Below are positions 2,036 to 62,642 of a stretch of 64,000 nt of DNA, one piece after another. Every line of letters begins with the position of its first letter. Within the stretch, counting starts at the first letter, position 1. The position numbers and the translations under genes are program-made. Source of the DNA: Acidobacteriota bacterium (GTDB taxonomy: Bacteria; Acidobacteriota; UBA6911); the NCBI GenBank assembly GCA_003225335.1, contig QHZE01000451.1:2612-66611 (forward strand), in the 5' to 3' direction. The notes below the pieces were generated by a model. It did no database searches, was not told the DNA's origin, and worked only from the letters and a program-made list of their open reading frames with translations.

Positions 2036-3091
2036 ATGCGCAAACTCATTTTAGTGGTTTGGGCGCTGTTGATGATTGGAATATCCGCCCAGCCCCAATC
2101 ACCGCAAAAGGGGCTGGATATCTATTGGTGCGATGTGGAAGGAGGAGCGGCCACTCTTATTGTCACCCCGGCTGGAGAATCCATACTGGTAGATTCCGGA
2201 TGGCCCGGGGAACGCGATGCGGCGCGCATAGCGAAGATCGCGAGGGAAGTTGCCGGATTGAAACAGATCGATCACCACCTCACGAGCCACTGGCACACCG
2301 ACCACTTCGGGGGCATCAGCGCTCTGGTGCAACAGATTCCCGTAAAGAACTTCTACGACCACGGGTTTCCGGCGTTGCCGGTCTCGGATATCCCGCCTGA
2401 GCTGGTGGAAGCCTATAAACGGGTCACCGCAGGAAAAACAACGGTGCTCAGGCCGGGGGATGGGATTCGACTGAAGCAGGCTCCGGGCAGCCCCCCGGTC
2501 TCGTTAAAGGTCGTGGCTTCGCACGGAGTGGTTTTGGGGGAGAAGGACGGCGCGCCGCAAGTGCGAGCCTGCAGCCCGGAGGCCAAGCACGAAGCCAGGG
2601 CAATCGACACATCCGACAATGCCCGCAGCCTGGCTTTCGTCCTCTCCTTTGGAGACTGGCAATTTTTCGACGCGGGAGACCTGACCTGGAATGTGGAGCA
2701 TAAACTCGTCTGTCCCCGAAACCTGGTCGGCACAGTCGACGTGTATCAGGTCACACACCACGGCATGGACATAAGCAACAACCCGGCGCTCGTGGAGGCG
2801 CTCCGGCCGCGCGTGGCCGTCATGAACAACGGCGCCAGCAAAGGCGGGTCTCCGGCCGCCGTCCGCATCGTGAAGGCATCGCCAGGGCTCCAGGGATTCT
2901 TCGCGCTTCATCGCAACATCCAGAGCGGGCCTGAGGACAATGCGTCTCCCGAGCTTACCGCCAACGACGAAGAGCAGTGCAAAGGGGAGTACGTGAAACT
3001 TGCGGTAGGCCCCGACAGCAAGTCCTACACGGTGAGCATCCCGTCCAAAGGAACCACAAGAAGTTACACGACTGCGCGCATTCACCGCTAA
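2036..3091 (+). CDS. MBL-fold metallo-hydrolase, secreted
   Basis: N-terminal signal peptide MRKLILVVWALLMIGISAQP. Metallo-beta-lactamase motif HHLTSHWHTDHFGG. Preceded by an AGGAGG RBS at 2025-2030. Confidence 0.7.
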   Translation: MRKLILVVWALLMIGISAQPQSPQKGLDIYWCDVEGGAATLIVTPAGESILVDSGWPGERDAARIAKIAREVAGLKQIDHHLTSHWHTDHFGGISALVQQIPVKNFYDHGFPALPVSDIPPELVEAYKRVTAGKTTVLRPGDGIRLKQAPGSPPVSLKVVASHGVVLGEKDGAPQVRACSPEAKHEARAIDTSDNARSLAFVLSFGDWQFFDAGDLTWNVEHKLVCPRNLVGTVDVYQVTHHGMDISNNPALVEALRPRVAVMNNGASKGGSPAAVRIVKASPGLQGFFALHRNIQSGPEDNASPELTANDEEQCKGEYVKLAVGPDSKSYTVSIPSKGTTRSYTTARIHR

Positions 3092-3140
3092 GACGCAAAA
3101 GACGCGAAGACGCGAAGAACCGCAAAGAAACGAAGAATCG
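3079..3140. repeat. family A element (GACGCGAAGA core), half copy
   Basis: ..TTCACCGCTAAGACGCAAAAGACGCGAAGACGCGAAGAACCGCAAAGAAACGAAGAATCG. Confidence 0.7.
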
Positions 3141-18246: not shown

Positions 18247-18356
18247 ATTCTTTGCTCTCCGGCGCCAAATTCTTTGCGACTCTTTGCGTCTTCGCGTCTC
18301 TGTGGTGAAGCAGGTTACGCCGCATTCACCGCCAAGACGCAAAGACGCGAAGAATC
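18247..18356. repeat. family A palindromic element, full copy
   Basis: TTCTTTGCGACTCTTTGCGTCTTCGCGTCTCTGTGGTGAAG ... TTCACCGCCAAGACGCAAAGACGCGAAGAATC. Confidence 0.8.
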
Positions 18357-20375: not shown

Positions 20376-20473
20376 TCTTAGCGATTCTTCGCGTCTTTGC
20401 GTCTTAGCGGTAACAATGGCGTAACCGCTTTCACCACAAAGACGCGAAGACGCAAAGAACTGCAAAGAATTCT
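20376..20473. repeat. family A palindromic element, full copy
   Basis: TTCTTCGCGTCTTTGCGTCTTAGCGGTAAC..GTAACCGCTTTCACCACAAAGACGCGAAGACGCAAAGAACTGCAAAGAA. Confidence 0.8.
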
Positions 20474-34010: not shown

Positions 34011-34079
34011 CGCATTCACCACGAAGACGCGAAGACACGGAGAAAGTCTTCTTCGCGCCTTCGCGTCTTCGTGGTGAAA
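34011..34079. repeat. family A palindromic element, full copy
   Basis: CATTCACCACGAAGACGCGAAGACACGGAGAAAGTCTTCTTCGCGCCTTCGCGTCTTCGTGGTGAAAAG. Confidence 0.8.
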
Positions 34080-37224: not shown

Positions 37225-37285
37225 TACGTCTTCGCGGTGGAAACTGAACCCGATTTAGCCGCGCAGACGCGAAGAGCGGAAAAGA
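37225..37285. repeat. family A-like element
   Basis: CTTACGTCTTCGCGGTGGAAA...GCCGCGCAGACGCGAAGAGCGG. Confidence 0.55.
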
Positions 37286-37846: not shown

Positions 37847-38320
37847 ATGGCTGGCGAATCGGGCGCAGGCCCTGGGTTCTTCACTTCAAAACTGGAGCGT
37901 GCCATCGGATGGGCGCGGAAGTATTCCATCTTCCAATATCCTTTCGTAACAGCCTGCTGCGGCATGGAGTACATGGCGACCGCGGCAGGGCACTACGATG
38001 TGGACCGCTTTGGAGCAGGACTGCCGCGCTTTTCGCCAAGACAGGCCGATGTTCTCTTTGTGGTGGGAACCATCAGTCACAAGATCGCTCCTGTCCTCTA
38101 CCGCGTGTACGAACAGATGTGCGAACCCAAATGGGTGGTTGCGTTCGGGGTCTGTACGTGCACCGGAGGGTTCTACGACAACTACGCAACCGTCCAGGGG
38201 ATCGACACTATCATTCCTGTAGACGTTTACATTCCGGGCTGCCCGCCCCGCCCTGAAGCCGTTCTGGACGGGCTAATGAAGTTACAAGAAAAGATCGAGA
38301 ACCAGAAACAGCTTCTTTGA
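37847..38320 (+). CDS. nuoB: NADH-quinone oxidoreductase subunit B (alternative start 37787)
   Basis: N2-cluster ligands CCGMEYMA and ..GCPPRPEA.. The length fits from ATG 37847. Confidence 0.9.
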   Translation: MAGESGAGPGFFTSKLERAIGWARKYSIFQYPFVTACCGMEYMATAAGHYDVDRFGAGLPRFSPRQADVLFVVGTISHKIAPVLYRVYEQMCEPKWVVAFGVCTCTGGFYDNYATVQGIDTIIPVDVYIPGCPPRPEAVLDGLMKLQEKIENQKQLL

Positions 38321-38328
38321 GTCCGCTT

Positions 38329-39669
38329 ATGGATGCCGCAACGTCCGCGCGGGAGACTCGAACCATGCTGGTCAACGTCGGGCCGTCGCACCCGGCGATG
38401 CATGGCGTGATTCGTTTGGTTACGGAGCTCGAGGGCGAAACCGTTGTCAAAGTGGAAGCGGAGATCGGATATCTCCATCGCGCCTTCGAGAAGAGCTGTG
38501 AGAATTCCACCTGGACCCAGAGCATTCCCTATACGGACCGTCTGAATTACGTTTCCCCGCTCATCAACAACTTCGGTTACTGCGCGGCCGTGGAAAAACT
38601 CCTCGGCATAGAAATCACGGAGCGCTGCAAGTACATCCGCGTTTTGATGAGCGAGATCTCACGCATTACGGATCATCTCACCTGCATCGGCGCGTCCGCC
38701 ATGGAGGTGGGCGCCATGACGGCCTTCTTGTACTTCATCAAGGCGCGCGAGTACCTCTACGAGATCGTCGAAGAAGTAACGGGCGCCCGGCTTACCATCT
38801 CCTACGGCCGAATCGGCGGCGTCAAGGCAGATCTTCCCCAAGGACTTGAAGAAAAGCTGGAGACAGATCTCAAGAAAGTCGAGAAGGAGCTTTACCAGGT
38901 AGACAAGCTCCTGACGCGCAACCGCATCTTTGTCGACCGGATGAAGGATGTCGGAGTCCTCACCGCGGAAGATGCCATCAGCTATTCCATTACGGGCCCC
39001 ATGGGCCGGGCGTCGGGAATAAACTACGACGTCCGGAGAGACTTTCCCTATTTTGTTTATGACCGGATGGAATTCGACGTCCCTTTGGGAGAGAAGGGGG
39101 ACAATTACGATCGTTACCTGGTGCGCATGGAAGAGATGCGCCAGAGCGTGCGCATCATACGGCAGGCCATGAAACAAATGCCGGGCGGGGCGGTAAATGT
39201 GGACTCCCAGGGAAAGGTCGTGCAGTCCTTCGAACTTGTGGACCAGGCCAAGATGGGGAGGACCGAAGGACTCGTCGATGTCGTCACCACGGTGGATCCC
39301 ACTCTTGAAGGAACACAGCGTACCTTCTTGAAACGAGTCATGCCCGCCGAGAGGCGAGTGATTCTTCCGCCCAAGGAAGACACGTACGGGAACATTGAGG
39401 GCCTGATGAACCATTTCAAGATCATCATGGACAATCACGGAATCCGGCCGCCCAAGGGAGACACGTACTTCGCCGTCGAAGGAGCCAACGGCGAGCTTGG
39501 ATTCTATGTTGTCAGCGATGGCAAGGACCACCCGTACCGCGTGCGGGTGCGGCCGCCGTGCTTCTTCGGCATGGCAGGGCTGCACAGGATGTTGGAAGGG
39601 TACATGGTGGCGGACATCGTACCCACGTTCGGATCCATCAACATGATTGCCGGAGAATTGGATCGATAA
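38329..39669 (+). CDS. nuoD: NADH-quinone oxidoreductase subunit D (49 kDa) with an approximately 40 aa internal insertion; alternative starts TTG 38317 and ATG 38365
   Basis: ..LVNVGPSHPAMHGVIRL.. and the C-terminal ..ADIVPTFGSINMIAGELDR are NuoD hallmarks. There are no NiFe Cys motifs. Confidence 0.85.
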   Translation: MDAATSARETRTMLVNVGPSHPAMHGVIRLVTELEGETVVKVEAEIGYLHRAFEKSCENSTWTQSIPYTDRLNYVSPLINNFGYCAAVEKLLGIEITERCKYIRVLMSEISRITDHLTCIGASAMEVGAMTAFLYFIKAREYLYEIVEEVTGARLTISYGRIGGVKADLPQGLEEKLETDLKKVEKELYQVDKLLTRNRIFVDRMKDVGVLTAEDAISYSITGPMGRASGINYDVRRDFPYFVYDRMEFDVPLGEKGDNYDRYLVRMEEMRQSVRIIRQAMKQMPGGAVNVDSQGKVVQSFELVDQAKMGRTEGLVDVVTTVDPTLEGTQRTFLKRVMPAERRVILPPKEDTYGNIEGLMNHFKIIMDNHGIRPPKGDTYFAVEGANGELGFYVVSDGKDHPYRVRVRPPCFFGMAGLHRMLEGYMVADIVPTFGSINMIAGELDR

Positions 39670-41219: not shown

Positions 41220-41621
41220 ATGAGCGACGGTGCGCAGAAGATCTACAGTTTGACCGAGGCCAATGAGTTGGTCCCTCTGATAGCCGACATCACTGCGGAC
41301 GTTGTCCGGCAGCTGGACGGGATTCGCCAGCGTTACAAGACCGGCGCGGAGGAAGGGGAGCCGGCCGTGCCCGAGTGGGTGCTGAAGGAGATTGAAGACG
41401 CATTGCGCGACTGGTCCAACAGGGTGCTCGAACTGGGCGCGGTTCCCAAAGGCTACTTTACCGTCGATTTTCAGTCAGTGGATCCGGAGCTGCTTTATTG
41501 CTGGACCTACGGGGAAGATAAGATCGCGTACACCCATAAGGTCTGGGAGAACTTCAGCCATCGGAAGCCTATTGCTTCCAGCGCAGAGGCGCCCACAGAT
41601 CACCTGCGATGGATCAACTGA
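41220..41621 (+). CDS. hypothetical protein
   Basis: 133 aa acidic protein with TATAAT 25 nt upstream. No motif recognised. Confidence 0.4.
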   Translation: MSDGAQKIYSLTEANELVPLIADITADVVRQLDGIRQRYKTGAEEGEPAVPEWVLKEIEDALRDWSNRVLELGAVPKGYFTVDFQSVDPELLYCWTYGEDKIAYTHKVWENFSHRKPIASSAEAPTDHLRWIN

Positions 41622-41698
41622 CAGATGTTTCGTGACGCTCCCAGCCTTCGAGTCTTAGGGGTGAACGGCTAAGTCTCAAAGACTCGAATCGGACCTCC

Positions 41699-42448
41699 AT
41701 GGTTACGCTTAAATCCAAACGCGAGCTGGAAATCATGCGGGATGCCAGCAGGATCGTGGGAGAGATTCTGCAGGAGCTGCGTCCACTGGTTCAGCCCGGG
41801 ATAACAACCCGCGAGTTGGATCGAATTGCAGAAGAGAAGACCCTCAAGCGCGGCGCTGCCCCGGCTTTCAAGGGCTATCGCGGTTTCCCCCGCACGCTTT
41901 GCACTTCCATCAATCATGAAGTGGTCCACGGCATCCCCGGCCATCGGGAACTGAAGGAAGGGGATATCGTGGGCCTCGACTTTGGAGTGATTTACAACGG
42001 TTATTACGGCGATTCGGCCATTACCGTGCCGGTCGGTGAAATCTCTCAGGACCTGAAACAGTTGCTGCGCGTAGCCGAAGAGTGTCTGTATCTCGGAATA
42101 GACCAGATGGTCCCGGGAAATCACCTGTCGGATATTTCGCGAGCAATCCAGACGCATGCGGAGTCCCATGGGTACTCTCTGGTCAAGGAGTTCGGCGGCC
42201 ATGGCATTGGCAGACGCCTTCATGAAGAGCCTATGGTGCTCAACTATGTGGTCAACGGTCGCGGCATCAAGCTCAAGCCGGGGTTGGTCCTGGCGGTCGA
42301 ACCCATGGTCAACCTGGGAGGCGATCAGGTCCGTATCCTGAGCGACCGCTGGACAGTTGTGACTGTGGACGGCAAACCGTCTGCGCACTTCGAGCACACG
42401 ATCGCGATCACCGAGCACGGTCCCCACATCCTTACCAAGGTGGCATGA
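41699..42448 (+). CDS. map: type I methionine aminopeptidase
   Basis: 249 aa. Metal ligands in ..DFGVIYNGYYGDSA.., ..HGIG..LHE.., ..EPMV.. Confidence 0.9.
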   Translation: MVTLKSKRELEIMRDASRIVGEILQELRPLVQPGITTRELDRIAEEKTLKRGAAPAFKGYRGFPRTLCTSINHEVVHGIPGHRELKEGDIVGLDFGVIYNGYYGDSAITVPVGEISQDLKQLLRVAEECLYLGIDQMVPGNHLSDISRAIQTHAESHGYSLVKEFGGHGIGRRLHEEPMVLNYVVNGRGIKLKPGLVLAVEPMVNLGGDQVRILSDRWTVVTVDGKPSAHFEHTIAITEHGPHILTKVA

Positions 42449-42462
42449 ACCACAACCATTAG

Positions 42463-42537
42463 CCTTTGCGCCCTTCGCGTCTTCGCGGTTAATTCGGGCT
42501 CAGTCTCACCGCGAAGACGCCACGGGCGCGAAGGGGT
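42463..42537. repeat. family A-like palindromic element
   Basis: CTTTGCGCCCTTCGCGTCTTCGCGGTTAAT..TCACCGCGAAGACGCCACGGGCGCGAAGGGG. Confidence 0.7.
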
Positions 42538-42624
42538 CGCAAGATGCTCGAATCGGTCCTCCCAGTTTTTCAGAATTCTCGAAAAACTGAATTTTCAAGA
42601 CCTGACCCCAAAAGAGGAGAGGCG

Positions 42625-43581
42625 ATGCCGGGAAGAAAGCTGCGAGAAGAAAGAGAGCTTTTCTATACCTACCTGCGTCAGAACGGGATGAAGAAGACCC
42701 GGCAGAAGGATCTTATTCTGGAAGTGTTCCTTACCACGGAAGGACATCTCAGCGTCGAAGACCTGTACGCCCTGGTCAAGAAGAAGGACAGGAAGGTGGG
42801 AATCGTGACGGTCTTCAGGACCCTAAAAACCCTGACGGGCTGCGGCATTGCCCGGGAGATCGCCCTCGGCGACGGGCTCACGCGATTCGAGCACAGCTAC
42901 CACCATCCGCATCACCATCACATCATCTGCACGCAGTGCCGCAAGGCGATCGAGTTCGTTTCTCCCGAACTGGAGAGAATCCAGGAAGAAATCGTGCGCA
43001 AGTATCACTTTCAGCCGCTGCTCCACCGCTTACAAGTCTACGGCATCTGTGAAGATTGCCTGGAACACCGCCCGGCTCCCGAGCCTCCCCGGCTCGACAC
43101 CGAAAAGATCTTTGCCCGGGACGCGCTGAGGATGGCCATTCTGATGGAGACGCGCGGTCTCGCGTTCTACCGGGATGCCGCGCGCCGGAATCTGGATCCC
43201 GACGGCCGTGAAGTCTTGAAAAGGATTGTGGAGGAGGAAGAGAAGCATCTGGCGGACTTACAGGCTGAGCTGAAGCGGTTTTGCCGAATGGAGAAAGGGC
43301 TGGAAACGGCTCCGGTCTTCCTTCATTTTGACCCATGCGAGTTGGAACGTCTGGTGCCGGACCTCGAGGAATATGAAGTCGACGGAACGCTTCGTCTCGA
43401 CACGCGGCGTTCTCTGGAGATGGCCATGGTTCTGGAACGTCGCGCCGCGGAATTCTTCAAGGATTACTCCGCCAAGTTCCTCGAGACCGAAGGCAAGCGA
43501 ATCTTCGTGCAGTTTGCCGAAGAGGAACAGAGGCACTTCGAATCCATTCGCCGCCGCGCCGAAGAGCCCCTCTCCGTCTAA
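42625..43581 (+). CDS. Fur/PerR-family metalloregulator fused to a C-terminal ferritin-like (rubrerythrin-type di-iron) domain
   Basis: RBS AAAGAGGAGAGG plus ATG 42625. N-terminal Fur fold with HHPHHHHIICTQC and ICEDC. The C-terminal roughly 170 aa carries two E..ExxH di-iron motifs (EEEEKHLADL, EEEQRHFESI). Confidence 0.75.
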   Translation: MPGRKLREERELFYTYLRQNGMKKTRQKDLILEVFLTTEGHLSVEDLYALVKKKDRKVGIVTVFRTLKTLTGCGIAREIALGDGLTRFEHSYHHPHHHHIICTQCRKAIEFVSPELERIQEEIVRKYHFQPLLHRLQVYGICEDCLEHRPAPEPPRLDTEKIFARDALRMAILMETRGLAFYRDAARRNLDPDGREVLKRIVEEEEKHLADLQAELKRFCRMEKGLETAPVFLHFDPCELERLVPDLEEYEVDGTLRLDTRRSLEMAMVLERRAAEFFKDYSAKFLETEGKRIFVQFAEEEQRHFESIRRRAEEPLSV

Positions 43582-43588
43582 CCGACGC

Positions 43589-43765
43589 GCATTCACCGCT
43601 GAGACGCAAAGACGAAGATGATAGTTGCCGGCGCACTCGTTCACGCCAGGTGTTATGCAGATTCCAACAGAATTAATGCCGTAGGGCCGACGGCTAAAGT
43701 TGTTTGCTCTTCGACAGAAAATTCTTTGCGATTCTTTGCGTCTTCGCGTCTTTGTGGTGAAAAGC
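43589..43765. repeat. family A element with long (about 85 nt) spacer between arms
   Basis: The left arm CATTCACCGCTGAGACGCAAAGACGAAGA spans 43589-43620. The right arm TTCTTTGCGATTCTTTGCGTCTTCGCGTCTTTGTGGTGAAAAG spans 43706-43765. Confidence 0.7.
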
Positions 43766-43770
43766 AATCG

Positions 43771-45225
43771 TCAGACCCAGGCGCCTTCCGGCAGCCGCTT
43801 GGGATCCCAGCGTCCGGCTTCGCCGCAGCCGGCGCGCCTTGGCAGGACTTTATCCGGATTGCAGAGTCCCTCAGGATCAAACGCGCGTTTCACCTTCGTC
43901 ATGGCGCGCAAATCCTCTTCTGAGAACTGGCGATCCATGTAGTCCCGCTTGTCCAAACCTATGCCGTGCTCTCCGCTGAGAGTTCCCCCGACCGCGAGGC
44001 AAGCTTCGATAATATCGGCGCAGGCCGCCAGCATGCGCCGGGTTTCATGGGGATCCTTCTCGTCATACAGAAGGATGGGGTGGAGATTCCCGTCTCCTGC
44101 GTGAAAGACGTTAGCGACCCGGATGTTGTGAGATTTTGATATTTCGTACACTCGGGAAAGCACTTCCGGAAGACGGTTGCGGGGGACAACAGTGTCGGAG
44201 AGATACATGTTGGGGCTCAACCGCCCGCAGGCGCCAAAGGCGCCCTTTCTGCCGGCCCAGAGCGCGGCGCGCTCTGCCGGGTCCCGCGCCACGCGGATTT
44301 CCGCGCAACCGTTGGCCTGGCAGAGCGCCCGAATCTGTTCTTCGCGCACCTTCAGGCCTGCGTCCAGGCCGTCCAGCTCGATGAGGAGCACGGCGCCGGC
44401 GTCCCTCGGATAACCTGCGCGGTAGTGGGAGTCCTCCACCGCCTTGATTATGGCCTGATCCATCATTTCGAGCGCGACGGGAACGATGCCTGCGGCTACG
44501 ATGTCCGACACGGTCTCGGTGGCCTGCTGGACGTGCGCGTATGCGGCCAGCAGCGTTCGCGTCGCCGGACTCGTGCGCACCAACCGCAGGCGGATCTCCG
44601 TGGCGATACCGAAAGTCCCCTCACTCCCTACAAAGATACCGCACAGATCGTATCCGGGTGGATCTGCGGCGGCGCCTCCCAATTCCATCACTTCGCCGTC
44701 CCCGAGAACGACGCTCAGCGCTAGAACGTGGTTTACGGTCGTGCCGTACTTGAGGCAGTGAGGCCCGCCGCTGTTTTCTGCGATGTTTCCTCCGATGGTG
44801 CAGGCGATCTGGCTGGAAGGGTCGGGAGCATAAAAGAAACCCGCATCAGCGACCCTGCGGGAAATCTCCATGTTGATCACGCCGGGCTGTACTACCGCCG
44901 CGCGGGCCTCGGCGTCTACTTCGAGGATCCGTTTCATGCGGGACGTTTCTATGATCATTCCACCGCGCGCCGCAGTCGCGCCCCCGCTCAATCCCGTGCC
45001 GGAGCCTCGCGCGGTAAAAGGCATCCGGTAACGCCGGGCGAGCTCGACCAGCCGGGAGACCTGGTGTGTAGTTTCCGGGAAGACCACAAAATCCGGCAGC
45101 GAGCGGTGATGGGTGAGGCCGTCGCATTCGTATGCCAGCAGCTCATCGGGGTCGTGCAAAATATAATTGGACCCGGCAATCTCTTCCAGTTCGCGGAGGA
45201 TCTTCGGCTTCGGCTCGGTCTTCAT
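43771..45225 (-). CDS. FAD-linked oxidase (GlcD / D-lactate dehydrogenase-like)
   Basis: 484 aa. FAD-binding PCMH-type N-domain ..RGSGTGLSGGA.. and a C-terminal oxidase domain. Confidence 0.8.
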   Translation of the reverse strand: MKTEPKPKILRELEEIAGSNYILHDPDELLAYECDGLTHHRSLPDFVVFPETTHQVSRLVELARRYRMPFTARGSGTGLSGGATAARGGMIIETSRMKRILEVDAEARAAVVQPGVINMEISRRVADAGFFYAPDPSSQIACTIGGNIAENSGGPHCLKYGTTVNHVLALSVVLGDGEVMELGGAAADPPGYDLCGIFVGSEGTFGIATEIRLRLVRTSPATRTLLAAYAHVQQATETVSDIVAAGIVPVALEMMDQAIIKAVEDSHYRAGYPRDAGAVLLIELDGLDAGLKVREEQIRALCQANGCAEIRVARDPAERAALWAGRKGAFGACGRLSPNMYLSDTVVPRNRLPEVLSRVYEISKSHNIRVANVFHAGDGNLHPILLYDEKDPHETRRMLAACADIIEACLAVGGTLSGEHGIGLDKRDYMDRQFSEEDLRAMTKVKRAFDPEGLCNPDKVLPRRAGCGEAGRWDPKRLPEGAWV

Positions 45226-45295
45226 AAGCTACAGATTACTCATTCGCACGATCCTTTTTCAACTCCCGCGGCACGGATTGCACAACTGGAAAAGC

Positions 45296-45374
45296 CTTGC
45301 CACGAATTACACGAAAGGGCTGCGTCACCGTGAGTGAGCGAAAGCATTTCGTGTAATTCGTGAAATTCGTGGCA
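45296..45374. repeat. family D palindromic element, full copy
   Basis: TTGCCACGAATTACACGAAAGGGCTGCGTCACCGTGAGTGAGCGAAAGCATTTCGTGTAATTCGTGAAATTCGTGGCAA. Confidence 0.8.
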
Positions 45375-45430
45375 AAGGAAGGTCGGTGTCTGGACTTCAT
45401 CCGGGGATTTGGGTAGAATCCGATTTCCTT

Positions 45431-45922
45431 ATGAGACAGCCGGAGCTCGGACCGCTGGAGCGGTTGTACATTACAGAAGTGGTAAAGGGCCTGGTCCTCA
45501 CCGCAAAGCACTTCTTTGTCAATTTCCCTCGTCACCTTCTGCGCGCTTTCGGCTTCAAGGTGGACAAGGGCGAAACAATCACCTACGAGTATCCGGAGGA
45601 GCGGCGGCCGTACGCGAAAAGGCTTCGAACGCGTCACCGCCTCACGATGCGCGAAGACGGAACGCCCCGTTGCGTGGCCTGCATGATGTGCGAGACGGTC
45701 TGCCCGGCGCGCTGTATTCACATTGTGGCTACAGAGCACCCGGATCCGAACATCGAGAAAATGCCCAAAGTGTTCGACATCGATCTGGGCGTGTGTGTCT
45801 TCTGCGGGTTTTGCGTGGAAGCCTGCCCGGAGGACGCGATCCGTATGGATACGGGCATTGTCGAACTCGCCTCATACACCCGCGAAGGCATGATCTACAG
45901 AATGGATCAGCTCCTGGGCTGA
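45431..45922 (+). CDS. nuoI: NADH-quinone oxidoreductase subunit I (2x[4Fe-4S]); alternative GTG start 45386
   Basis: CVACMMCETVCP and CVFCGFCVEACP ferredoxin motifs. The N-terminus aligns with Nqo9/NuoI from M(RQPELG). Confidence 0.85.
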   Translation: MRQPELGPLERLYITEVVKGLVLTAKHFFVNFPRHLLRAFGFKVDKGETITYEYPEERRPYAKRLRTRHRLTMREDGTPRCVACMMCETVCPARCIHIVATEHPDPNIEKMPKVFDIDLGVCVFCGFCVEACPEDAIRMDTGIVELASYTREGMIYRMDQLLG

Positions 45923-46011
45923 TTTCTTGACAAGCCCACCTGATAGCTTTACAGTAAATTTTCCAATCACTTGCAAACACGAGGACTTCGTCGATCTGAA
46001 GGAGGCGCAAG

Positions 46012-46803
46012 ATGGGAGATATTTCCGCAGCGTTTGAAGCCTTGTTTCGATGGATGCACGTCTTTGCTGGAATTCTATGGATAGGACATCTGTATTTTTT
46101 CAACTTCGTGAACGGCCAGTTCGAAGGAAAACTGGACGGAGGAACCAAGAAGACCGTGATTCCGGAGCTGCGGCCTCGCGCTCTGTTCTGGTTCCGATGG
46201 GGGGCTGCCTGGACCTGGGTCACCGGAGTCCTGCTCCTTGGCATCGTCTACTACATGAACGGCGTGGCGGTGGATACCAACAAAGAGTTTACGGCCGGGA
46301 CCATCGTGATGATCGCGGTTACCTTCCTGGCTGTTTTGCTTTACGATTTCCTGTTCAAGAGCCCCCTGGCGCAGAATATCAAGGTGGCCTCCACCGTGGC
46401 TTACGTCCTGCTCGCCATTGTGGTCGTGCTCTTCGCGACTTTCGGGAACTTCAGCTACCGGGGCACGCTGATTCATACCGGCGCCATGTTCGGAACCATA
46501 ATGGCTTTTAATGTGTGGTTCCGCATATGGCCGGCACAGCAAAAAATCATCAAGGCGATCAAGGAAGGCACCGCTCCCGATGCGAACCTCGTGAAACTCG
46601 CCGGACTCCGATCCCGGCAGAACACGTACCTGTCGCTCCCGCTGCTCTGGGCGATGGTGGGCCAGCACACCACCTACTTCGCCGGCGGGAACCTCGGGAT
46701 CTCAAGCAAGTACTACTGGATCGCCTGGCTGGCGCTCATCCCCGTCAGCTGGCATATCATCTTCCAGTGCTACAAGAAGGCAGGGAAGGTCTCCGGTTTC
46801 TAG
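46012..46803 (+). CDS. polytopic integral membrane protein (possibly a haem/cytochrome-associated membrane domain)
   Basis: 263 aa with at least 6 predicted TM helices and a His-containing first helix (WMHVFAGILWIGHLYFF). It precedes the cytochrome c peroxidase gene. Confidence 0.45.
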   Translation: MGDISAAFEALFRWMHVFAGILWIGHLYFFNFVNGQFEGKLDGGTKKTVIPELRPRALFWFRWGAAWTWVTGVLLLGIVYYMNGVAVDTNKEFTAGTIVMIAVTFLAVLLYDFLFKSPLAQNIKVASTVAYVLLAIVVVLFATFGNFSYRGTLIHTGAMFGTIMAFNVWFRIWPAQQKIIKAIKEGTAPDANLVKLAGLRSRQNTYLSLPLLWAMVGQHTTYFAGGNLGISSKYYWIAWLALIPVSWHIIFQCYKKAGKVSGF

Positions 46804-46821
46804 GCAACGTAACTCATTTAC

Positions 46822-46999
46822 CGCTCATTCACCGCAGAGACGCAGAGAACGCAGAGAAAGATTCGGCAAAATGACCCATGACAAATGAAGGATGAAAGAT
46901 TGCACGCGAGGAAACGAATCTGCGAAGCTGTCGTTGTTCATTTGTCATCGATCATTGTCAAACATTCTCCGCGTACTCCGCGTCTCTGCGGTGAGAACG
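46822..46999. repeat. composite: family A-variant arms (GACGCAGAGA) flanking an ATGACAAATGA-type palindrome
   Basis: The left arm spans 46822-46860 and the right arm 46965-46999. The inner palindrome spans 46868-46960. Confidence 0.75.
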
Positions 47000-47038
47000 G
47001 GAATCGCAACTAATGAAAATCTTAATTTTGGAAAGGCT

Positions 47039-48124
47039 ATGAGAAGCGTCTATTCATTGCGTGGTTTCAACATTCGTCTTGCGCTCTCCATCTTCTTCGT
47101 TTGTGCGCTGGCTCTGACTATTGCCGGTTGTGCCAGGAAGGAGCCGGAACAGCCGAAGGAGGAAGCGCCAAAAGCCCCCGCGCCGTATGTGATGAGTTTC
47201 CCGCTGGGCCTGGCTGCGGAGAGCGTCGTTGTCCCCCCTGATAATCCTATGACGGAGGAGAAGATCAAGCTGGGCAAGAGGCTGTTCTTCGAGAAGAAAC
47301 TCTCGACGGACCAATCCATTTCCTGCGCCTCTTGCCACATTCCCGAGCACGGTTTTTCAGACTCGCGCCAGTTTTCGGCCGGAGTCGGAGGCAAAACGGG
47401 AACCCGCCAGTCTCCCGCCGCCATAAACCGGGTTTTCAGCGCAGCGCAGTTCTGGGATGGCCGCGCGAAATCCCTCGAGGAACAGGCGCTCGGACCGGTT
47501 CAGAACCCGTTGGAAATGGCTATGCCGTCCATGGACGTGGTCGTCGAAAGACTCACGAGCGACCCAAGTTACTCCAGCGACTTCAAGGCGGCCTTTCCTC
47601 CGGACGGAGCCATCACGCCGGGAAACCTGGCCAAGGCGATTGCCAGCTTCGAGAGGACGATTGTGTCAGGGAAGAGCCCCTTCGATCGCTTTACGGCCGG
47701 AGACAAGACTGCGATGAGCGAGGCGGCACAGCGGGGCATGAAAATCTTTCGAGACGAGAAGAAGGGAAACTGCGAAACTTGCCATGCCTCTTTCAACTTC
47801 ACCGACGAAAACTACAATAATATCGGTGTGGGTATGGCGGCCAAGAAGCCCGATCTGGGCCGTTACGAAGTCACCAAGCTGGAAGGGCATCAAGGGGCAT
47901 TCAAAACCCCGACGCTCCGCGAGGTGGCCAACACCGCTCCCTACATGCATGACGGTTCTGAAAAGACCCTCGAAGAGGTCGTCGCCTTCTACAACAAAGG
48001 AGGCTACCGGAACAAGTGGCTTTCCCCGAAGATCAAACCCTTGAAGCTGACCAAGCAGGAGCAGCAGGACCTCGTGGAGTTTTTGAAGGCGCTCTCCGGT
48101 GAGGTGACCTGGTACGGGAAATAA
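47039..48124 (+). CDS. di-haem cytochrome c peroxidase (CCP/MauG family), lipoprotein
   Basis: Start ATG 47039; the ORF track start at 46892 runs through repeats. Lipobox LALTIAGC. Two CxxCH sites (CASCH, CETCH). Confidence 0.85.
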   Translation: MRSVYSLRGFNIRLALSIFFVCALALTIAGCARKEPEQPKEEAPKAPAPYVMSFPLGLAAESVVVPPDNPMTEEKIKLGKRLFFEKKLSTDQSISCASCHIPEHGFSDSRQFSAGVGGKTGTRQSPAAINRVFSAAQFWDGRAKSLEEQALGPVQNPLEMAMPSMDVVVERLTSDPSYSSDFKAAFPPDGAITPGNLAKAIASFERTIVSGKSPFDRFTAGDKTAMSEAAQRGMKIFRDEKKGNCETCHASFNFTDENYNNIGVGMAAKKPDLGRYEVTKLEGHQGAFKTPTLREVANTAPYMHDGSEKTLEEVVAFYNKGGYRNKWLSPKIKPLKLTKQEQQDLVEFLKALSGEVTWYGK

Positions 48125-62369: not shown

Positions 62370-62642
62370 CTCACCGCAGAGGCGCGGAGAACGCGGAGGT
62401 CATCCCTCGGGGCGTCCCGCAAGGCGGGACTCAGCGTTTCTAACTCCCCGCACTCCCAGGAGAACGCACAAAAAATCCTTTGCCGGCAGGAAAGGATTTT
62501 TCTTCGCGGAATCTTCGCGCTCTTCGCGGCTTCGCGGTGAATCCTGGGCTGGACTTTCACCGCGAAGGCGCGAAGCACGCGAAGAAAACGCGAAGGACTT
62601 TAGTTTGGTTGCGGCTTTGCTGCTCTGTGTTCATCGGCGGGT
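62370..62642. repeat. composite family A-variant arms plus family I element
   Basis: TCACCGCAGAGGCGCGGAGAACGCGGAGG ... CTTCGCGCTCTTCGCGGCTTCGCGGTGAATC ... TTTCACCGCGAAGGCGCGAAGCACGCGAAGAAAACGCGAAGG, then TTTGGTTGCGGCTTTGCTGCTCTGTGTTCATCGGCGG. Confidence 0.75.

What the first reader, a model, noticed from the sequence alone, without database searches (positions are those of the whole stretch)
42625..43581. Fur/PerR-family regulator fused to a rubrerythrin-like di-iron domain
The N-terminal roughly 145 aa have the Fur fold with both metal sites, HHPHHHHIICTQC and ICEDC. The C-terminal roughly 170 aa contain two E(x)nExxH di-iron motifs, EEEEKHLADL and EEEQRHFESI, typical of ferritin-like or rubrerythrin four-helix bundles. 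The ORF is continuous with no frameshift and is preceded by a strong RBS, AAAGAGGAGAGG. Fusing a peroxide- or iron-sensing repressor to a di-iron sensing or peroxidase domain would couple sensing chemistry directly to DNA binding. Fur proteins are normally single-domain.
Basis: partly seen in the sequence, partly recalled or inferred. Interest (0 to 1): 0.55.

Follow-up and report, generated by a model that had tools for sequence, protein, structure and literature searches.

The report
Fur repressor fused to di-iron domain
This is a real, uncharacterized gene, conserved across the soil phylum Acidobacteriota, in which the classic bacterial iron-sensing repressor Fur carries an extra ferritin-like domain with a two-iron binding site, probably a built-in second sensing or modulating module that ordinary Fur proteins lack.

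Summary
Window 42625-43581 (+) encodes a continuous 318-aa protein. Residues 14-148 are a complete Fur module: Pfam FUR E=6e-31, the Cys4 site, and regulatory site H41/E89/H97/H99/E110. Residues 159-313 form a confidently modelled ferritin-like four-helix bundle (pLDDT 92.5) carrying the full E, ExxH, E, ExxH di-iron ligand set.

It is not an assembly artefact. At least 465 full-length relatives exist in the window's clade, and a second very large clade exists in Vicinamibacterales. Every member that carries an organism name is Acidobacteriota. Sources call them only 'Fur family regulator' or 'transcriptional repressor', and five literature searches found no description.

The Fur site is Fur-type (Glu), not PerR-type (Asp). 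The bundle is closest to uncharacterized COG1633 proteins (2oh3, 2fzf), not to rubrerythrin proper, and it has no rubredoxin domain.

The di-iron ligands are invariant in Vicinamibacterales (119/120). They have eroded repeatedly in the window's clade, although this protein keeps all six.

The most likely function is an Fe(II)-dependent repressor with a cis regulatory or scaffolding di-metal domain, not an enzyme. Its regulon is unknown, and no Fur box precedes the gene in this window. I rate it a new variant of a known kind, of moderate-to-good interest.

The parts
42611..42622 (+). Ribosome-binding site AAAGAGGAGAGG, 2 nt before the ATG at 42625
   Evidence: Read directly from the sequence. 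Homologues start at the same Met.
42625..43581 (+). Complete CDS of the Fur/ferritin-like fusion protein (318 aa plus stop)
   Evidence: A 100% identical protein (P0001) and at least 465 full-length relatives exist.
42664..43068 (+). Fur module, aa 14-148: winged-helix DNA-binding domain plus dimerization domain
   Evidence: Pfam FUR E=5.7e-31. PDB C. jejuni Fur 6d57 E=1.9e-25 over aa 11-148. Foldseek hits to Fur, PerR and Zur structures.
42745..42747 (+). His41, the N-terminal-domain ligand of the regulatory metal site S2 (equivalent to PerR His37)
   Evidence: Alignment. Invariant in 131/131 and 120/120 members.
42889..42939 (+). E89 and the HSYHHPHHHHIICTQC motif (aa 89-105). It holds S2 ligands E89, H97 and H99, S3 ligands H96 and H98, and the first CxxC (C102, C105) of the Cys4 site.
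42952..42954 (+). Glu110, the S2 O-donor at the position of PerR Asp104. Glu here marks the Fur type.
   Evidence: Criterion from PMC4866751. Conserved in 129/131 and 120/120 members.
43048..43059 (+). Second CxxC (C142-E-D-C145) of the structural Cys4 site
43060..43098 (+). Short Pro-rich linker LEHRPAPEPPRLD (aa 146-158)
   Evidence: Low-confidence, non-helical stretch in the AF2 models. Variable in the alignment.
43099..43563 (+). Ferritin-like (COG1633/erythrin-type) four-helix bundle, aa 159-313. Helices are A 159-188, B 192-222, C 260-282 and D 289-313, with a long B-C crossover.
43111..43125 (+). FARDA motif (aa 163-167) at the start of helix A. It is conserved in both clades and is not a metal ligand.
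43147..43149 (+). Glu175, the helix-A di-iron ligand candidate
43237..43248 (+). E205-E-K-H208, the helix-B ExxH di-iron motif
43318..43332 (+). FLHFD (aa 232-236) in the B-C crossover loop. It is nearly invariant in the window's clade and reads FLFFK in Vicinamibacterales. It is a probable packing or interface element.
43435..43437 (+). Glu271, the helix-C di-iron ligand candidate. It is present here but replaced by Asn, Gly, Gln or Ser in most of the window's clade.
43525..43536 (+). E301-Q-R-H304, the helix-D ExxH di-iron motif

Best explanation
The gene encodes a genuine one-polypeptide metalloregulator that is conserved across Acidobacteriota.

Shown: the N-terminal 148 residues are a complete Fur-type module. 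It has a winged-helix DNA-binding domain, a dimerization domain with the structural Cys4 site, and a regulatory His3Glu2 site. The C-terminal 155 residues are a ferritin-like four-helix bundle of the COG1633/erythrin type. In this protein it retains all six canonical di-iron ligands (E175, E205xxH208, E271, E301xxH304).

Inferred: the protein binds DNA as an Fe(II)-loaded Fur dimer and represses transcription. In many relatives this includes its own promoter, which carries a Fur-box-like 7-1-7 palindrome. The fused bundle is not a stand-alone enzyme. It is a cis regulatory appendage attached through a 13-residue linker next to the dimerization domain. Its scaffold, marked by the conserved FARDA, FLxF and FF elements, contacts or bridges the Fur dimer. 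Its di-metal site, where intact as here, gives a second read-out of iron supply and possibly of O2/H2O2, through Fe(II)2 to Fe(III)2 oxidation. That read-out would tune DNA binding. The domain would then be a covalent counterpart of trans-acting Fe(II)-binding Fur modulators such as Fpa/YlaN.
For: - The fusion is real and selected. There are at least 465 full-length relatives at 63-100% identity, 38 loci in Acidobacteriota species genomes and a second large clade in Vicinamibacterales. The two halves diverge in parallel between clades, at 41% and 38% identity. No convincing split or stand-alone versions exist; the apparent ones are fragments or IS-disrupted.
- The Fur module is intact. H41, E89, H97, H99, E110 and the four Cys are invariant or nearly so in 131 and 120 members.
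- The Fur module is Fur-type, not PerR-type.
- The di-iron ligand pattern EEHEEH is found in 119/120 Vicinamibacterales members, in the divergent clades P0128, P0136, P0139 and P0174, and in the window's sub-clade. That points to an ancestral, selected metal site.
- It does not look like an enzyme. There is no rubredoxin domain, only C220 and C238 lie in the C-terminal half, there is no ExxE on helix C, and rubrerythrin is a distant structural match.
- Autoregulation is plausible. The 17-mer TTGAAGATCATTTGCAA (7-1-7 core TGAAGAT-C-ATTTGCA) lies at a fixed -56 to -65 next to an extended -10 in 17 loci, once per locus, and again in the 3 metagenome loci that carry the gene.
- The neighbourhood is iron-related. 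In Vicinamibacterales, 4/4 loci show IscA/ErpA-like, then the fusion, then PHP. In the window's clade a 2x[4Fe-4S] NuoI-like gene follows in about 30 of 35 loci.
- There is a precedent for a Fur modulator that binds Fe(II): Fpa/YlaN (PMC11559061).
Against: - There are no experimental data for any member. Metal binding, DNA binding and the coupling between them are all inferred.
- In the window's own clade the di-iron ligands are lost repeatedly (AGQQQR, ATQQER, AEQGEH, GEYNGN, EELNKQ; E271 is Asn in 51/131), yet the domain is kept. Metal sensing therefore cannot be the universal function. The C-terminal half also evolves faster than the Fur half in this clade, at 53% against 80% identity.
- This window lacks the candidate operator. 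A REP-like hairpin occupies the upstream region, and no sigma-70-like promoter was found.
- The Vicinamibacterales operons show no Fur-box-like palindrome.
- The regulon could not be determined.
- The inter-domain geometry is not established. The full-length model has pTM 0.59 and a low-confidence dimerization region, and neither coordinates nor a multimer model were available.
Confidence: 0.5

Rival explanations
1. Scaffold only. The C-terminal bundle is mainly a structural or oligomerization module. It might pair the two bundles of a Fur dimer, or build tetramers for cooperative operator binding. The di-metal site would be vestigial or purely structural, with no sensing role.
For: Ligands are lost many times independently in the window's clade while the domain stays full-length. 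The best-conserved positions in that clade are non-ligand ones: FARDA, M170-A171, R177, N189, G194, FLHFD, P245, F277-F278, F285, F297. COG1633, rubrerythrin and ferritin-type bundles commonly oligomerize (general knowledge, not tested here).
Against: All six ligands are essentially invariant in Vicinamibacterales (119/120). They are also retained in the divergent clades and in the window's own sub-clade, which is hard to explain without selection on metal binding. This protein has the full set.
Confidence: 0.25
2. Bifunctional enzyme-regulator. The bundle is a catalytic rubrerythrin-like peroxidase, or a Bfr/Dps-like ferroxidase, tethered to DNA by Fur. It would detoxify H2O2 or Fe(II) locally, or protect the Fur Fe(II) site.
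For: The six-ligand set is the same as the ferroxidase and peroxidase centres of bacterioferritin and the erythrins. Structural matches include Dps, Dpr, ferritin and Mn-catalase. perR-rbr operons elsewhere link Fur-family regulators with rubrerythrins (PMC545781). A di-haem peroxidase gene lies 3.3 kb downstream here, and a Cu/Zn SOD gene lies near the Vicinamibacterales operon.
Against: There is no rubredoxin or other electron-entry domain. Helix C lacks the rubrerythrin ExxE (sequence). Rubrerythrin proper is a distant match. A regulator is present at low copy number, which makes a poor bulk detoxifier (inference). Ligand loss in many relatives is incompatible with an essential catalytic role. 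The peroxidase neighbour is not conserved, being present in 3 of about 35 loci.
Confidence: 0.12
3. PerR-like peroxide sensor. The Fur module itself senses H2O2 by metal-catalysed His oxidation, and the fused bundle is simply its regulated rubrerythrin partner captured by gene fusion.
For: The Fur family includes PerR. The NCBIfam PerR models give secondary hits at 65.6 bits. perR-rbr gene adjacency is common in delta-proteobacteria (PMC545781).
Against: The best matches are Fur models, at 103.9 bits against 65.6, and Fur structures. Both O-donor positions are Glu (E89, E110), not the Asp85 and Asp104 that characterize PerR and govern H2O2 reactivity. The neighbours are not peroxide-stress genes in most loci.
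Confidence: 0.08
4. Artefact. Two separate genes (fur and a COG1633 gene) were joined by a sequencing or assembly error or a frameshift.
For: None found.
Against: The same continuous architecture, of the same length (about 317-335 aa), appears in well over a thousand independent assemblies from JGI, ENA, NCBI and Logan, including multi-megabase contigs and a closed chromosome. The linker is in frame without stops. No locus with adjacent split genes was seen.
Confidence: 0.01

Closest known systems
Fur (ferric uptake regulator), e.g. C. jejuni Fur 6d57/4ets, B. cereus Fur 9ire, M. gryphiswaldense Fur 4rb1
   Same: Full-length match of aa 11-149 at 35-37% identity. Same Cys4 structural site, same His3Glu2 regulatory site with Glu at both O-donor positions, and an S3-like site in the window's clade. 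A Fur-box-like 7-1-7 palindrome lies at the promoters of many orthologues.
   Different: It carries an extra 170-residue ferritin-like domain that no characterized Fur has. It scores far below the NCBIfam Fur equivalog cut-offs, at 103.9 against 220 bits. The operator consensus TGAAGAT-C-ATTTGCA differs from TGATAAT-n-ATTATCA at 4 of 14 positions. Regulon and metal specificity are unknown.
COG1633 / 'erythrin'-type stand-alone ferritin-like di-iron proteins (2oh3 Magnetospirillum, 2fzf Pyrococcus PF1190, 1vjx TM1526, symerythrin)
   Different: Those are single-domain proteins, mostly of unknown function. Here the bundle is fused to a transcription factor and has clade-specific conserved elements (FARDA, FLHFD) absent from them. 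Identity is only about 20-26%.
Rubrerythrin proper (e.g. D. vulgaris Rbr, 1b71) and the perR-rbr(-rdl/-roo) operons
   Same: It hits the Pfam Rubrerythrin family above threshold and has a di-iron four-helix bundle. In Desulfovibrio, Geobacter and Desulfuromonas a Fur-family regulator gene and rbr are co-transcribed (PMC545781), so the fusion joins two partner types that recur as neighbours elsewhere.
   Different: It has no rubredoxin-like Fe(Cys)4 domain and no ExxE seventh ligand on helix C, and it is a distant structural match (rank 39, TM 0.41). The regulator half is Fur-type, not PerR-type. In those operons Rbr is a regulated enzyme, not part of the regulator.
Fpa/YlaN-Fur (Firmicutes)
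   Same: A small helical Fe(II)-binding protein that binds Fur and lowers its DNA binding, giving Fur a second iron-dependent input (PMC11559061; a YlaN-Fur model, 9a4a, was among the fold hits to the Fur half). Functionally this is the closest precedent for an accessory metal-binding module acting on Fur.
   Different: It acts in trans, is unrelated in sequence and fold family, binds a single Fe(II) and is found in Gram-positive bacteria. Here the module is covalently fused, is a di-metal ferritin-like bundle, and is found in Acidobacteriota. The functional analogy is an inference, not a test.
Other fusions of erythrin/ferritin-like or hemerythrin di-iron domains to non-enzymatic partners: MbfA (erythrin-VIT1 iron exporter), PRK12775-type multidomain proteins, mammalian FBXL5 hemerythrin domain
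   Same: A di-iron helical bundle serves as an iron- (and O2-) responsive module attached to an effector. Weak sequence matches to MbfA (2.8e-5) and to the PRK12775 ferritin domain (8e-8). The FBXL5 comparison rests on my own knowledge.
   Different: The effector here is a DNA-binding repressor that already has its own iron site. No such fusion with a Fur-family protein was found in the literature searched.

Membership tests
Fur family (Pfam PF01475) | Sequence match to the family profile over the DNA-binding and dimerization domains, above the curated threshold | tested here: met
   107.6 bits against a cut-off of 23.1, covering aa 20-139 and profile positions 2-121 of 121. PDB Fur hits down to 1.9e-25. 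Foldseek probability 1.00 to Fur, PerR and Zur structures.
Fur family (Pfam PF01475) | Structural Zn(Cys)4 site formed by two CxxC motifs | tested here: met
   C102-x2-C105 and C142-x2-C145 are present. Each is conserved in 129-130 of 131 and in 120/120 members. Zn occupancy itself is not testable here.
Fur sensu stricto (Fe(II)-sensing) | Regulatory site of three His plus two acidic ligands, with Glu at the position of PerR Asp104 | tested here: met
   H41, E89, H97, H99 and E110 align to PerR H37, D85, H91, H93 and D104. The criterion is from PMC4866751. The residues are invariant across both clades.
Fur sensu stricto (Fe(II)-sensing) | Equivalog-level similarity to characterized Fur (NCBIfam cut-offs) | tested here: not met
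   Best score is 103.9 bits to NF051892 against a cut-off of 220; NF051891 scores 88 against 200; NF006999 scores 74.9 against 146. It is therefore a Fur-family member but not an equivalog of any curated Fur.
Fur sensu stricto (Fe(II)-sensing) | Fe(II)-dependent binding to a Fur box and control of iron-uptake genes | not testable with these tools
   A Fur-box-like 7-1-7 palindrome lies at the promoter of 17 orthologous loci but not in this window or in Vicinamibacterales. The regulon could not be recovered.
PerR | Asp at both O-donor positions (Asp85, Asp104) of the regulatory site, which confers H2O2 reactivity | tested here: not met
   Glu89 and Glu110 occupy those positions. PerR models score lower than Fur models, at 65.6 against 103.9 bits.
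Ferritin-like superfamily, COG1633/erythrin-type di-iron domain | Four-helix bundle with a long crossover between helices B and C | tested here: met
Ferritin-like superfamily, COG1633/erythrin-type di-iron domain | Ligand set: Glu (helix A), ExxH (B), Glu (C), ExxH (D) | tested here: met
   E175, E205/H208, E271 and E301/H304 are present in this protein. The columns align with the ligand columns of 2fzf, TM1526 and the designed DF proteins. Across the family the result is mixed: 119/120 in Vicinamibacterales but only 47/131 in the window's clade.
Ferritin-like superfamily, COG1633/erythrin-type di-iron domain | Actual binding of two Fe (or Mn) ions | not testable with these tools
   Needs metal analysis and spectroscopy of purified protein.
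Rubrerythrin sensu stricto | Pfam PF02915 match above threshold | tested here: met
   29.6 bits against 22.8, in two stretches. Relatives score up to 42 bits.
Rubrerythrin sensu stricto | Rubredoxin-like Fe(Cys)4 domain attached to the di-iron bundle | tested here: not met
   The C-terminal half has only C220 and C238 and no CxxC pair. The only Cys4 site is the Fur structural site, N-terminal to the bundle.
Rubrerythrin sensu stricto | Seventh ligand: ExxE on helix C (Glu94/Glu97 in D. vulgaris Rbr; numbering from my own knowledge) | tested here: not met
   Helix C reads L-E271-R-R-A, with no Glu at +3.
Dps / ferritin / bacterioferritin cage formers | Assembly into 12- or 24-mer shells; for Dps, an inter-subunit ferroxidase site | not tested
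   Only fold-level similarity at 6-15% identity. The site here is intra-subunit. The oligomeric state is unknown.

The most novel reading that the evidence does not exclude
The fused bundle is a redox-active di-iron switch. Fe(II)2 loading reports iron sufficiency, and oxidation by O2 or H2O2 to an oxo-bridged Fe(III)2 form changes the bundle's conformation or pairing, which gates DNA binding by the attached Fur dimer. That would be a new class of one-component regulator, phylum-wide in Acidobacteriota, that integrates iron supply and oxidant exposure in a single polypeptide. It would be a bacterial, DNA-binding analogue of the FBXL5 hemerythrin iron/oxygen sensor. It would also explain how an H2O2-insensitive Fur-type site can still respond to oxidants. 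A more extreme version (about 5%) has the adjacent Fur Cys4 site binding Fe and feeding electrons to the di-iron site, as in a 'reverse rubrerythrin'.
Probability: 0.3. Interest if true: 0.75.

Novelty: new variant of a known kind. Interest (0 to 1): 0.55.

Why it matters
Fur is the paradigm bacterial metalloregulator, and it has been treated as a self-contained two-domain protein. Only recently were accessory proteins shown to modulate it (Fpa/YlaN). Here an entire, ecologically dominant soil and sediment phylum appears to use a Fur with a built-in second metal-binding domain, and public annotation hides this under 'Fur family regulator'.

If the di-iron bundle modulates DNA binding, it would be a new way of wiring iron and oxidant sensing into one polypeptide. 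It would give a natural system for studying allosteric control of Fur, and a handle on iron homeostasis in Acidobacteriota, which are hard to culture and poorly understood genetically.

The family also offers a natural experiment: clades with a strictly conserved di-iron site alongside clades where it has decayed.

Tried and rejected
1. Sequencing-error fusion: rejected by recurrence.
2. Naturally split genes or stand-alone close homologues of the C-terminal domain. The apparent ones (P0121, P0122, P0124, P0130) begin inside conserved motifs or inside the Fur domain, and P0127 is joined to a transposase. All are fragments.
3. Fur box in the window. The classical 7-1-7 pattern gives one 3-mismatch hit, which equals chance and lies between convergent genes. 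The family-specific operator gives six 3-mismatch hits, more than the shuffles, but all lie inside long ORFs or at gene ends. The PWM scan found no intergenic site.
4. Regulon discovery by scanning metagenome contigs for the exact 17-mer. 117 of the 120 hits are chance matches in unrelated, mostly low-GC contigs, and only 3 carry the fusion. This was a dead end.
5. Operator in Vicinamibacterales: no 7-1-7 palindrome upstream of the iscA-like or fusion genes.
6. H234/D236/C238 of the FLHFD loop as an extra metal site: rejected as a general feature, because Vicinamibacterales has FLFFK and Ala at these positions.
7. Functional link to the di-haem peroxidase. The neighbour is not conserved, being present in 3 of about 35 loci.
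8. Known RNA elements in the flanks: none.
9. The whole-protein fold search was dominated by the Fur half, so the C-terminal domain was modelled separately.
10. The afdb50 fold library was unavailable.
11. A search for a cultured host through cluster names returned only MAG or unnamed records.
12. Literature: five searches with different vocabularies found no description of a Fur/ferritin-like fusion. The library covers open-access papers only.
Full report
**1. The observation**

Window 42625-43581 (+) is a continuous ORF of 318 codons plus stop. The ORF listing extends it to an upstream ATG at 42544, but every homologue starts at the MP(x)RKL Met at 42625. That Met is preceded by AAAGAGGAGAGG at 42611-42622.

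Pfam assigns FUR to aa 20-139 (E=5.7e-31). It assigns Rubrerythrin (PF02915) to the C-terminal half at 29.6 bits, above the curated 22.8, with Ferritin_2 just under its threshold. PDB sequence search gives C. jejuni Fur (6d57) at 1.9e-25 over aa 11-148. It gives weak hits of aa 165-313 to designed di-iron bundles and to 2fzf and 2oh3.

**2. Not an artefact, and widespread**

A search of 5.8 billion proteins returned at least 465 relatives. The best 120 are all full-length (about 317-322 aa, 63-100% identity) and carry both Pfam domains.

A scan of one genome per species found 38 loci encoding the fusion, all in Acidobacteriota MAGs. The Gemmatimonadales and Myxococcota hits covered the Fur half only.

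An exhaustive HMMER search with the C-terminal domain alone found only 35 representatives at E<=1e-10 among 1.84 billion. Many of them match from about residue 150 of proteins about 320 aa long, and those checked were again FUR+Rubrerythrin.

A high-GC branch turned out to be a very large Vicinamibacterales clade. Every member that carries an organism name is Acidobacteriota, and the names given are only 'Fur family ... regulator' or 'transcriptional repressor'.

Apparent stand-alone C-terminal domains are fragments or IS-disrupted genes. Between the two big clades the Fur half is 41% identical and the C-terminal half 38%. That fits one ancient fusion followed by co-divergence.

**3. The Fur half**

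All three Fur metal sites are present:
- the Cys4 site (C102, C105, C142, C145);
- the regulatory site S2 (H41, E89, H97, H99, E110);
- an S3-like site (H96, H98, E117, H134).

S1 and S2 are essentially invariant in 131 members of the window's clade and in 120 Vicinamibacterales members. S3 is absent from Vicinamibacterales.

NCBIfam ranks Fur models (103.9 bits) above PerR (65.6) and Zur (30.8), but all fall far below the equivalog cut-offs.

In an alignment to B. subtilis PerR, H41/E89/H97/H99/E110 fall on H37/D85/H91/H93/D104. PerR proteins have Asp at these O-donor positions, whereas Fur proteins have Glu at the Asp104 position. That residue has been proposed to control H2O2 access (PMC4866751, citing Parent et al. 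2013). The module is therefore Fur-type. By this criterion it should not itself be a peroxide sensor.

**4. The C-terminal half**

Modelled alone with a 31-sequence alignment it gives pLDDT 92.5 and pTM 0.86. It is a four-helix bundle (helices 159-188, 192-222, 260-282, 289-313) with a long B-C crossover.

- Foldseek: 2fzf and 2oh3 (TM 0.61/0.67) come first, and rubrerythrin 1b71 is only rank 39 (TM 0.41).
- A 16-sequence profile of the domain hits 2fzf (7e-13), TM1526 (1e-10), designed DF di-iron proteins, 2oh3, EncB and symerythrin. The family's E and ExxH columns fall on the ligand columns.

The protein has the six canonical ligands E175, E205/H208, E271 and E301/H304. It has no rubredoxin-type CxxC pairs and no ExxE on helix C. 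It is therefore a ferritin-like, erythrin/COG1633-type di-iron domain, and 'rubrerythrin' applies only in the Pfam sense.

**5. Conservation of the di-iron site differs by clade**

| Group | State of the six ligands |
|---|---|
| Vicinamibacterales | EEHEEH in 119/120; both halves equally constrained (82% and 79% mean pairwise identity) |
| Divergent fusions P0128, P0136, P0139, P0174 | all six kept |
| Window's clade, 131 members | EEHEEH in 47; Glu271 is Asn in 51; Glu205 often Val or Gly |
| Window's clade, species-representative genomes | eroded many times: AGQQQR, ATQQER, AEQGEH, GEYNGN, EELNKQ |

In the window's clade the domain keeps its length despite this erosion, and the FLHF(D/N) crossover loop stays nearly invariant. 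There the C-terminal half evolves faster than the Fur half, at 53% against 80% identity.

The window protein and its sub-clade (L001, L004, L017, L021, L034, P0002-P0020) keep the complete site. Elements conserved in both clades besides the ligands are FARDA at the start of helix A, F232/L233/F235 and F277-F278.

My reading is that the complete di-metal site is ancestral and is under selection in most lineages, including this one. The scaffold also has a metal-independent role, most simply a contact with the Fur core or a pairing of bundles.

**6. Regulatory DNA**

Seventeen loci of the window's clade carry TTGAAGATCATTTGCAA at -56 to -65 from the ATG, followed by an extended -10 (TGnTATGAT).
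- The core TGAAGAT-C-ATTTGCA is a 7-1-7 inverted repeat matching the Fur-family consensus TGATAAT-n-ATTATCA at 10 of 14 positions.
- It occurs once per locus, only at this promoter.
- It reappears with the same context in the three metagenome loci that encode the fusion.

This is a plausible autoregulatory operator, although a pure promoter element cannot be excluded.

The window itself lacks it. The 177-bp gap after map holds a REP-like hairpin (42463-42534) and an AT-rich stretch, with no sigma-70-like match and no Fur box. Vicinamibacterales operons show no such palindrome either. An attempt to find regulon members by scanning metagenomes for the 17-mer was swamped by chance hits.

**7. Genomic context**

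| Clade | Gene order around the fusion |
|---|---|
| Window's clade (about 30 of 35 loci) | map, then the fusion, then a NuoI-like 2x[4Fe-4S] gene |
| This window | a GlcD-like gene inserted on the opposite strand; radical-SAM/SPASM and DUF2203 genes upstream; Urate_ox_N membrane protein, di-haem peroxidase and XdhC downstream |
| L018 (closed chromosome) | nuoD, map, methyltransferase, fusion, nuoI-like, lpdA, lipB, E2 |
| Vicinamibacterales (4/4 loci) | IscA/ErpA-like Fe-S carrier, fusion, PHP, ABC-ATPase-like (overlapping stop and start codons in L166); Cu/Zn SOD opposite in 3/4 |
| Third clade (P0128) | unrelated neighbours |

The peroxidase is a neighbour in only 3 other loci. The context is thus mildly iron/Fe-S flavoured, but it does not define a function.

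**8. Mechanism**

Shown:
- a complete Fur-type sensor and DNA-binding module;
- an attached ferritin-like bundle with an intact di-iron ligand set;
- long-term co-inheritance of the two halves;
- no electron-transfer domain.

Inferred: the protein is an Fe(II)-dependent repressor, and its fused bundle acts in cis on the Fur dimer. The scaffold provides a contact or bridge. The di-metal site, where present, provides a second read-out of iron availability and possibly of O2/H2O2.

The precedent is Fpa/YlaN, a separate Fe(II)-binding protein that binds Fur and lowers its DNA binding (PMC11559061). The recurrent perR-rbr operons of delta-proteobacteria show that Fur-family regulators and rubrerythrin-type proteins are frequent partners (PMC545781). 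In those operons, however, Rbr is a regulated enzyme.

Rivals:
- scaffold-only (supported by the ligand erosion);
- enzyme-regulator (weakened by the missing rubredoxin domain and by the ligand loss);
- PerR-like sensor (contradicted by Glu89 and Glu110);
- artefact (refuted).

**9. Novelty and verdict**

The architecture is visible in databases, where both Pfam hits are precomputed, but it is annotated only as a Fur-family regulator. Five literature searches with different vocabularies found no description; the library covers open-access papers only.

It is best filed as a new variant of a known kind: a Fur-family regulator with an added di-iron ferritin-like domain. Its breadth across the phylum, the clean contrast between clades that keep or lose the metal site, and the direct testability of cis-modulation of Fur make it moderately to clearly interesting (0.55). 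If the di-iron site proves to gate DNA binding, the interest would be higher.

Noticed in passing
window 42463-42534, 43597-43748, 46829-46994; also 3085-3113, 18286-18340, 20399-20453, 34019-34074, 37226-37270, 62526-62571: A dispersed REP-like palindromic element made of inverted GCGTCTTCGCGG-type arms 30-45 nt apart. There are 17 matches against 1.1 expected. Copies bracket the fusion gene, and one sits where relatives have the promoter and operator. No Rfam family matches in 41500-47200.
   Followed up: partly
window 45297-45375: A strong inverted repeat, with 16-nt arms 100% complementary and 19-nt arms 95% complementary (TTGCCACGAATTACACGAA / TTCGTGAAATTCGTGGCAA). It lies in the divergent intergenic region between the GlcD-like gene (start 45225, - strand) and the NuoI-like gene (start 45386, + strand). 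It could be an operator or a bidirectional terminator. Unexplained.
   Followed up: no
window 46892-47039: The first ~49 codons of the di-haem cytochrome c peroxidase ORF overlap a REP-like element. The likelier start is Met50 at 47039, which is followed by a lipoprotein-like signal ending LTIAGC.
   Followed up: no
L002, L003, L005, L007, L010, L012, L014-L016, L018, L022, L023, L025, L026, L028, L029, L038 at -56 to -65 from the fusion ATG; also L073, L112, L155: A conserved 17-mer TTGAAGATCATTTGCAA (Fur-box-like 7-1-7 palindrome) directly upstream of an extended -10 (TGnTATGAT). It occurs once per locus and is absent from this window and from the sub-clade that keeps Glu271.
   Followed up: yes
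L018 2712-7555; window 38317-39669 and 45386-45922: The fusion sits between nuoD and a solitary nuoI-like 2x[4Fe-4S] gene, with map and a methyltransferase also inserted. The complex I genes therefore look split around this locus. The window ORF 38317-39669 was assumed to be nuoD from synteny only and was not checked by HMM.
   Followed up: partly
L164 7512-8981, L165 7648-10623, L166 3659-6503: In Vicinamibacterales the fusion lies in an apparent operon: IscA/ErpA-like (PF01521), fusion, PHP-domain protein, ABC-ATPase-like, with a Cu/Zn superoxide dismutase gene on the opposite strand just downstream. TATAAT lies 7-9 nt before the iscA-like ATG in L165 and L166, which suggests a leaderless transcript. 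Some database proteins (P0137, P0150, P0161, P0180) read as Rubrerythrin+PHP or FUR+Rubrerythrin+PHP. P0138 and P0150 contain long low-complexity stretches, so they probably join adjacent genes.
   Followed up: partly
P0127 (185 aa): A family member whose C-terminal 125 residues are the ferritin-like domain. Its N-terminus looks to me like a transposase/integrase fragment (not checked by HMM), apparently an IS insertion into the fusion gene.
   Followed up: no
L006, L013 (closest syntenic relatives, 66-68% identity), L007, L025, L028, L029, L038: Orthologues in which most or all six di-iron ligands are replaced (AGQQQR, ATQQER, AEQGEH, EELNKQ, GEYNGN). The domain nevertheless remains full-length and the FLHF loop is conserved, which makes them natural 'ligand-dead' variants for comparison.
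   Followed up: partly
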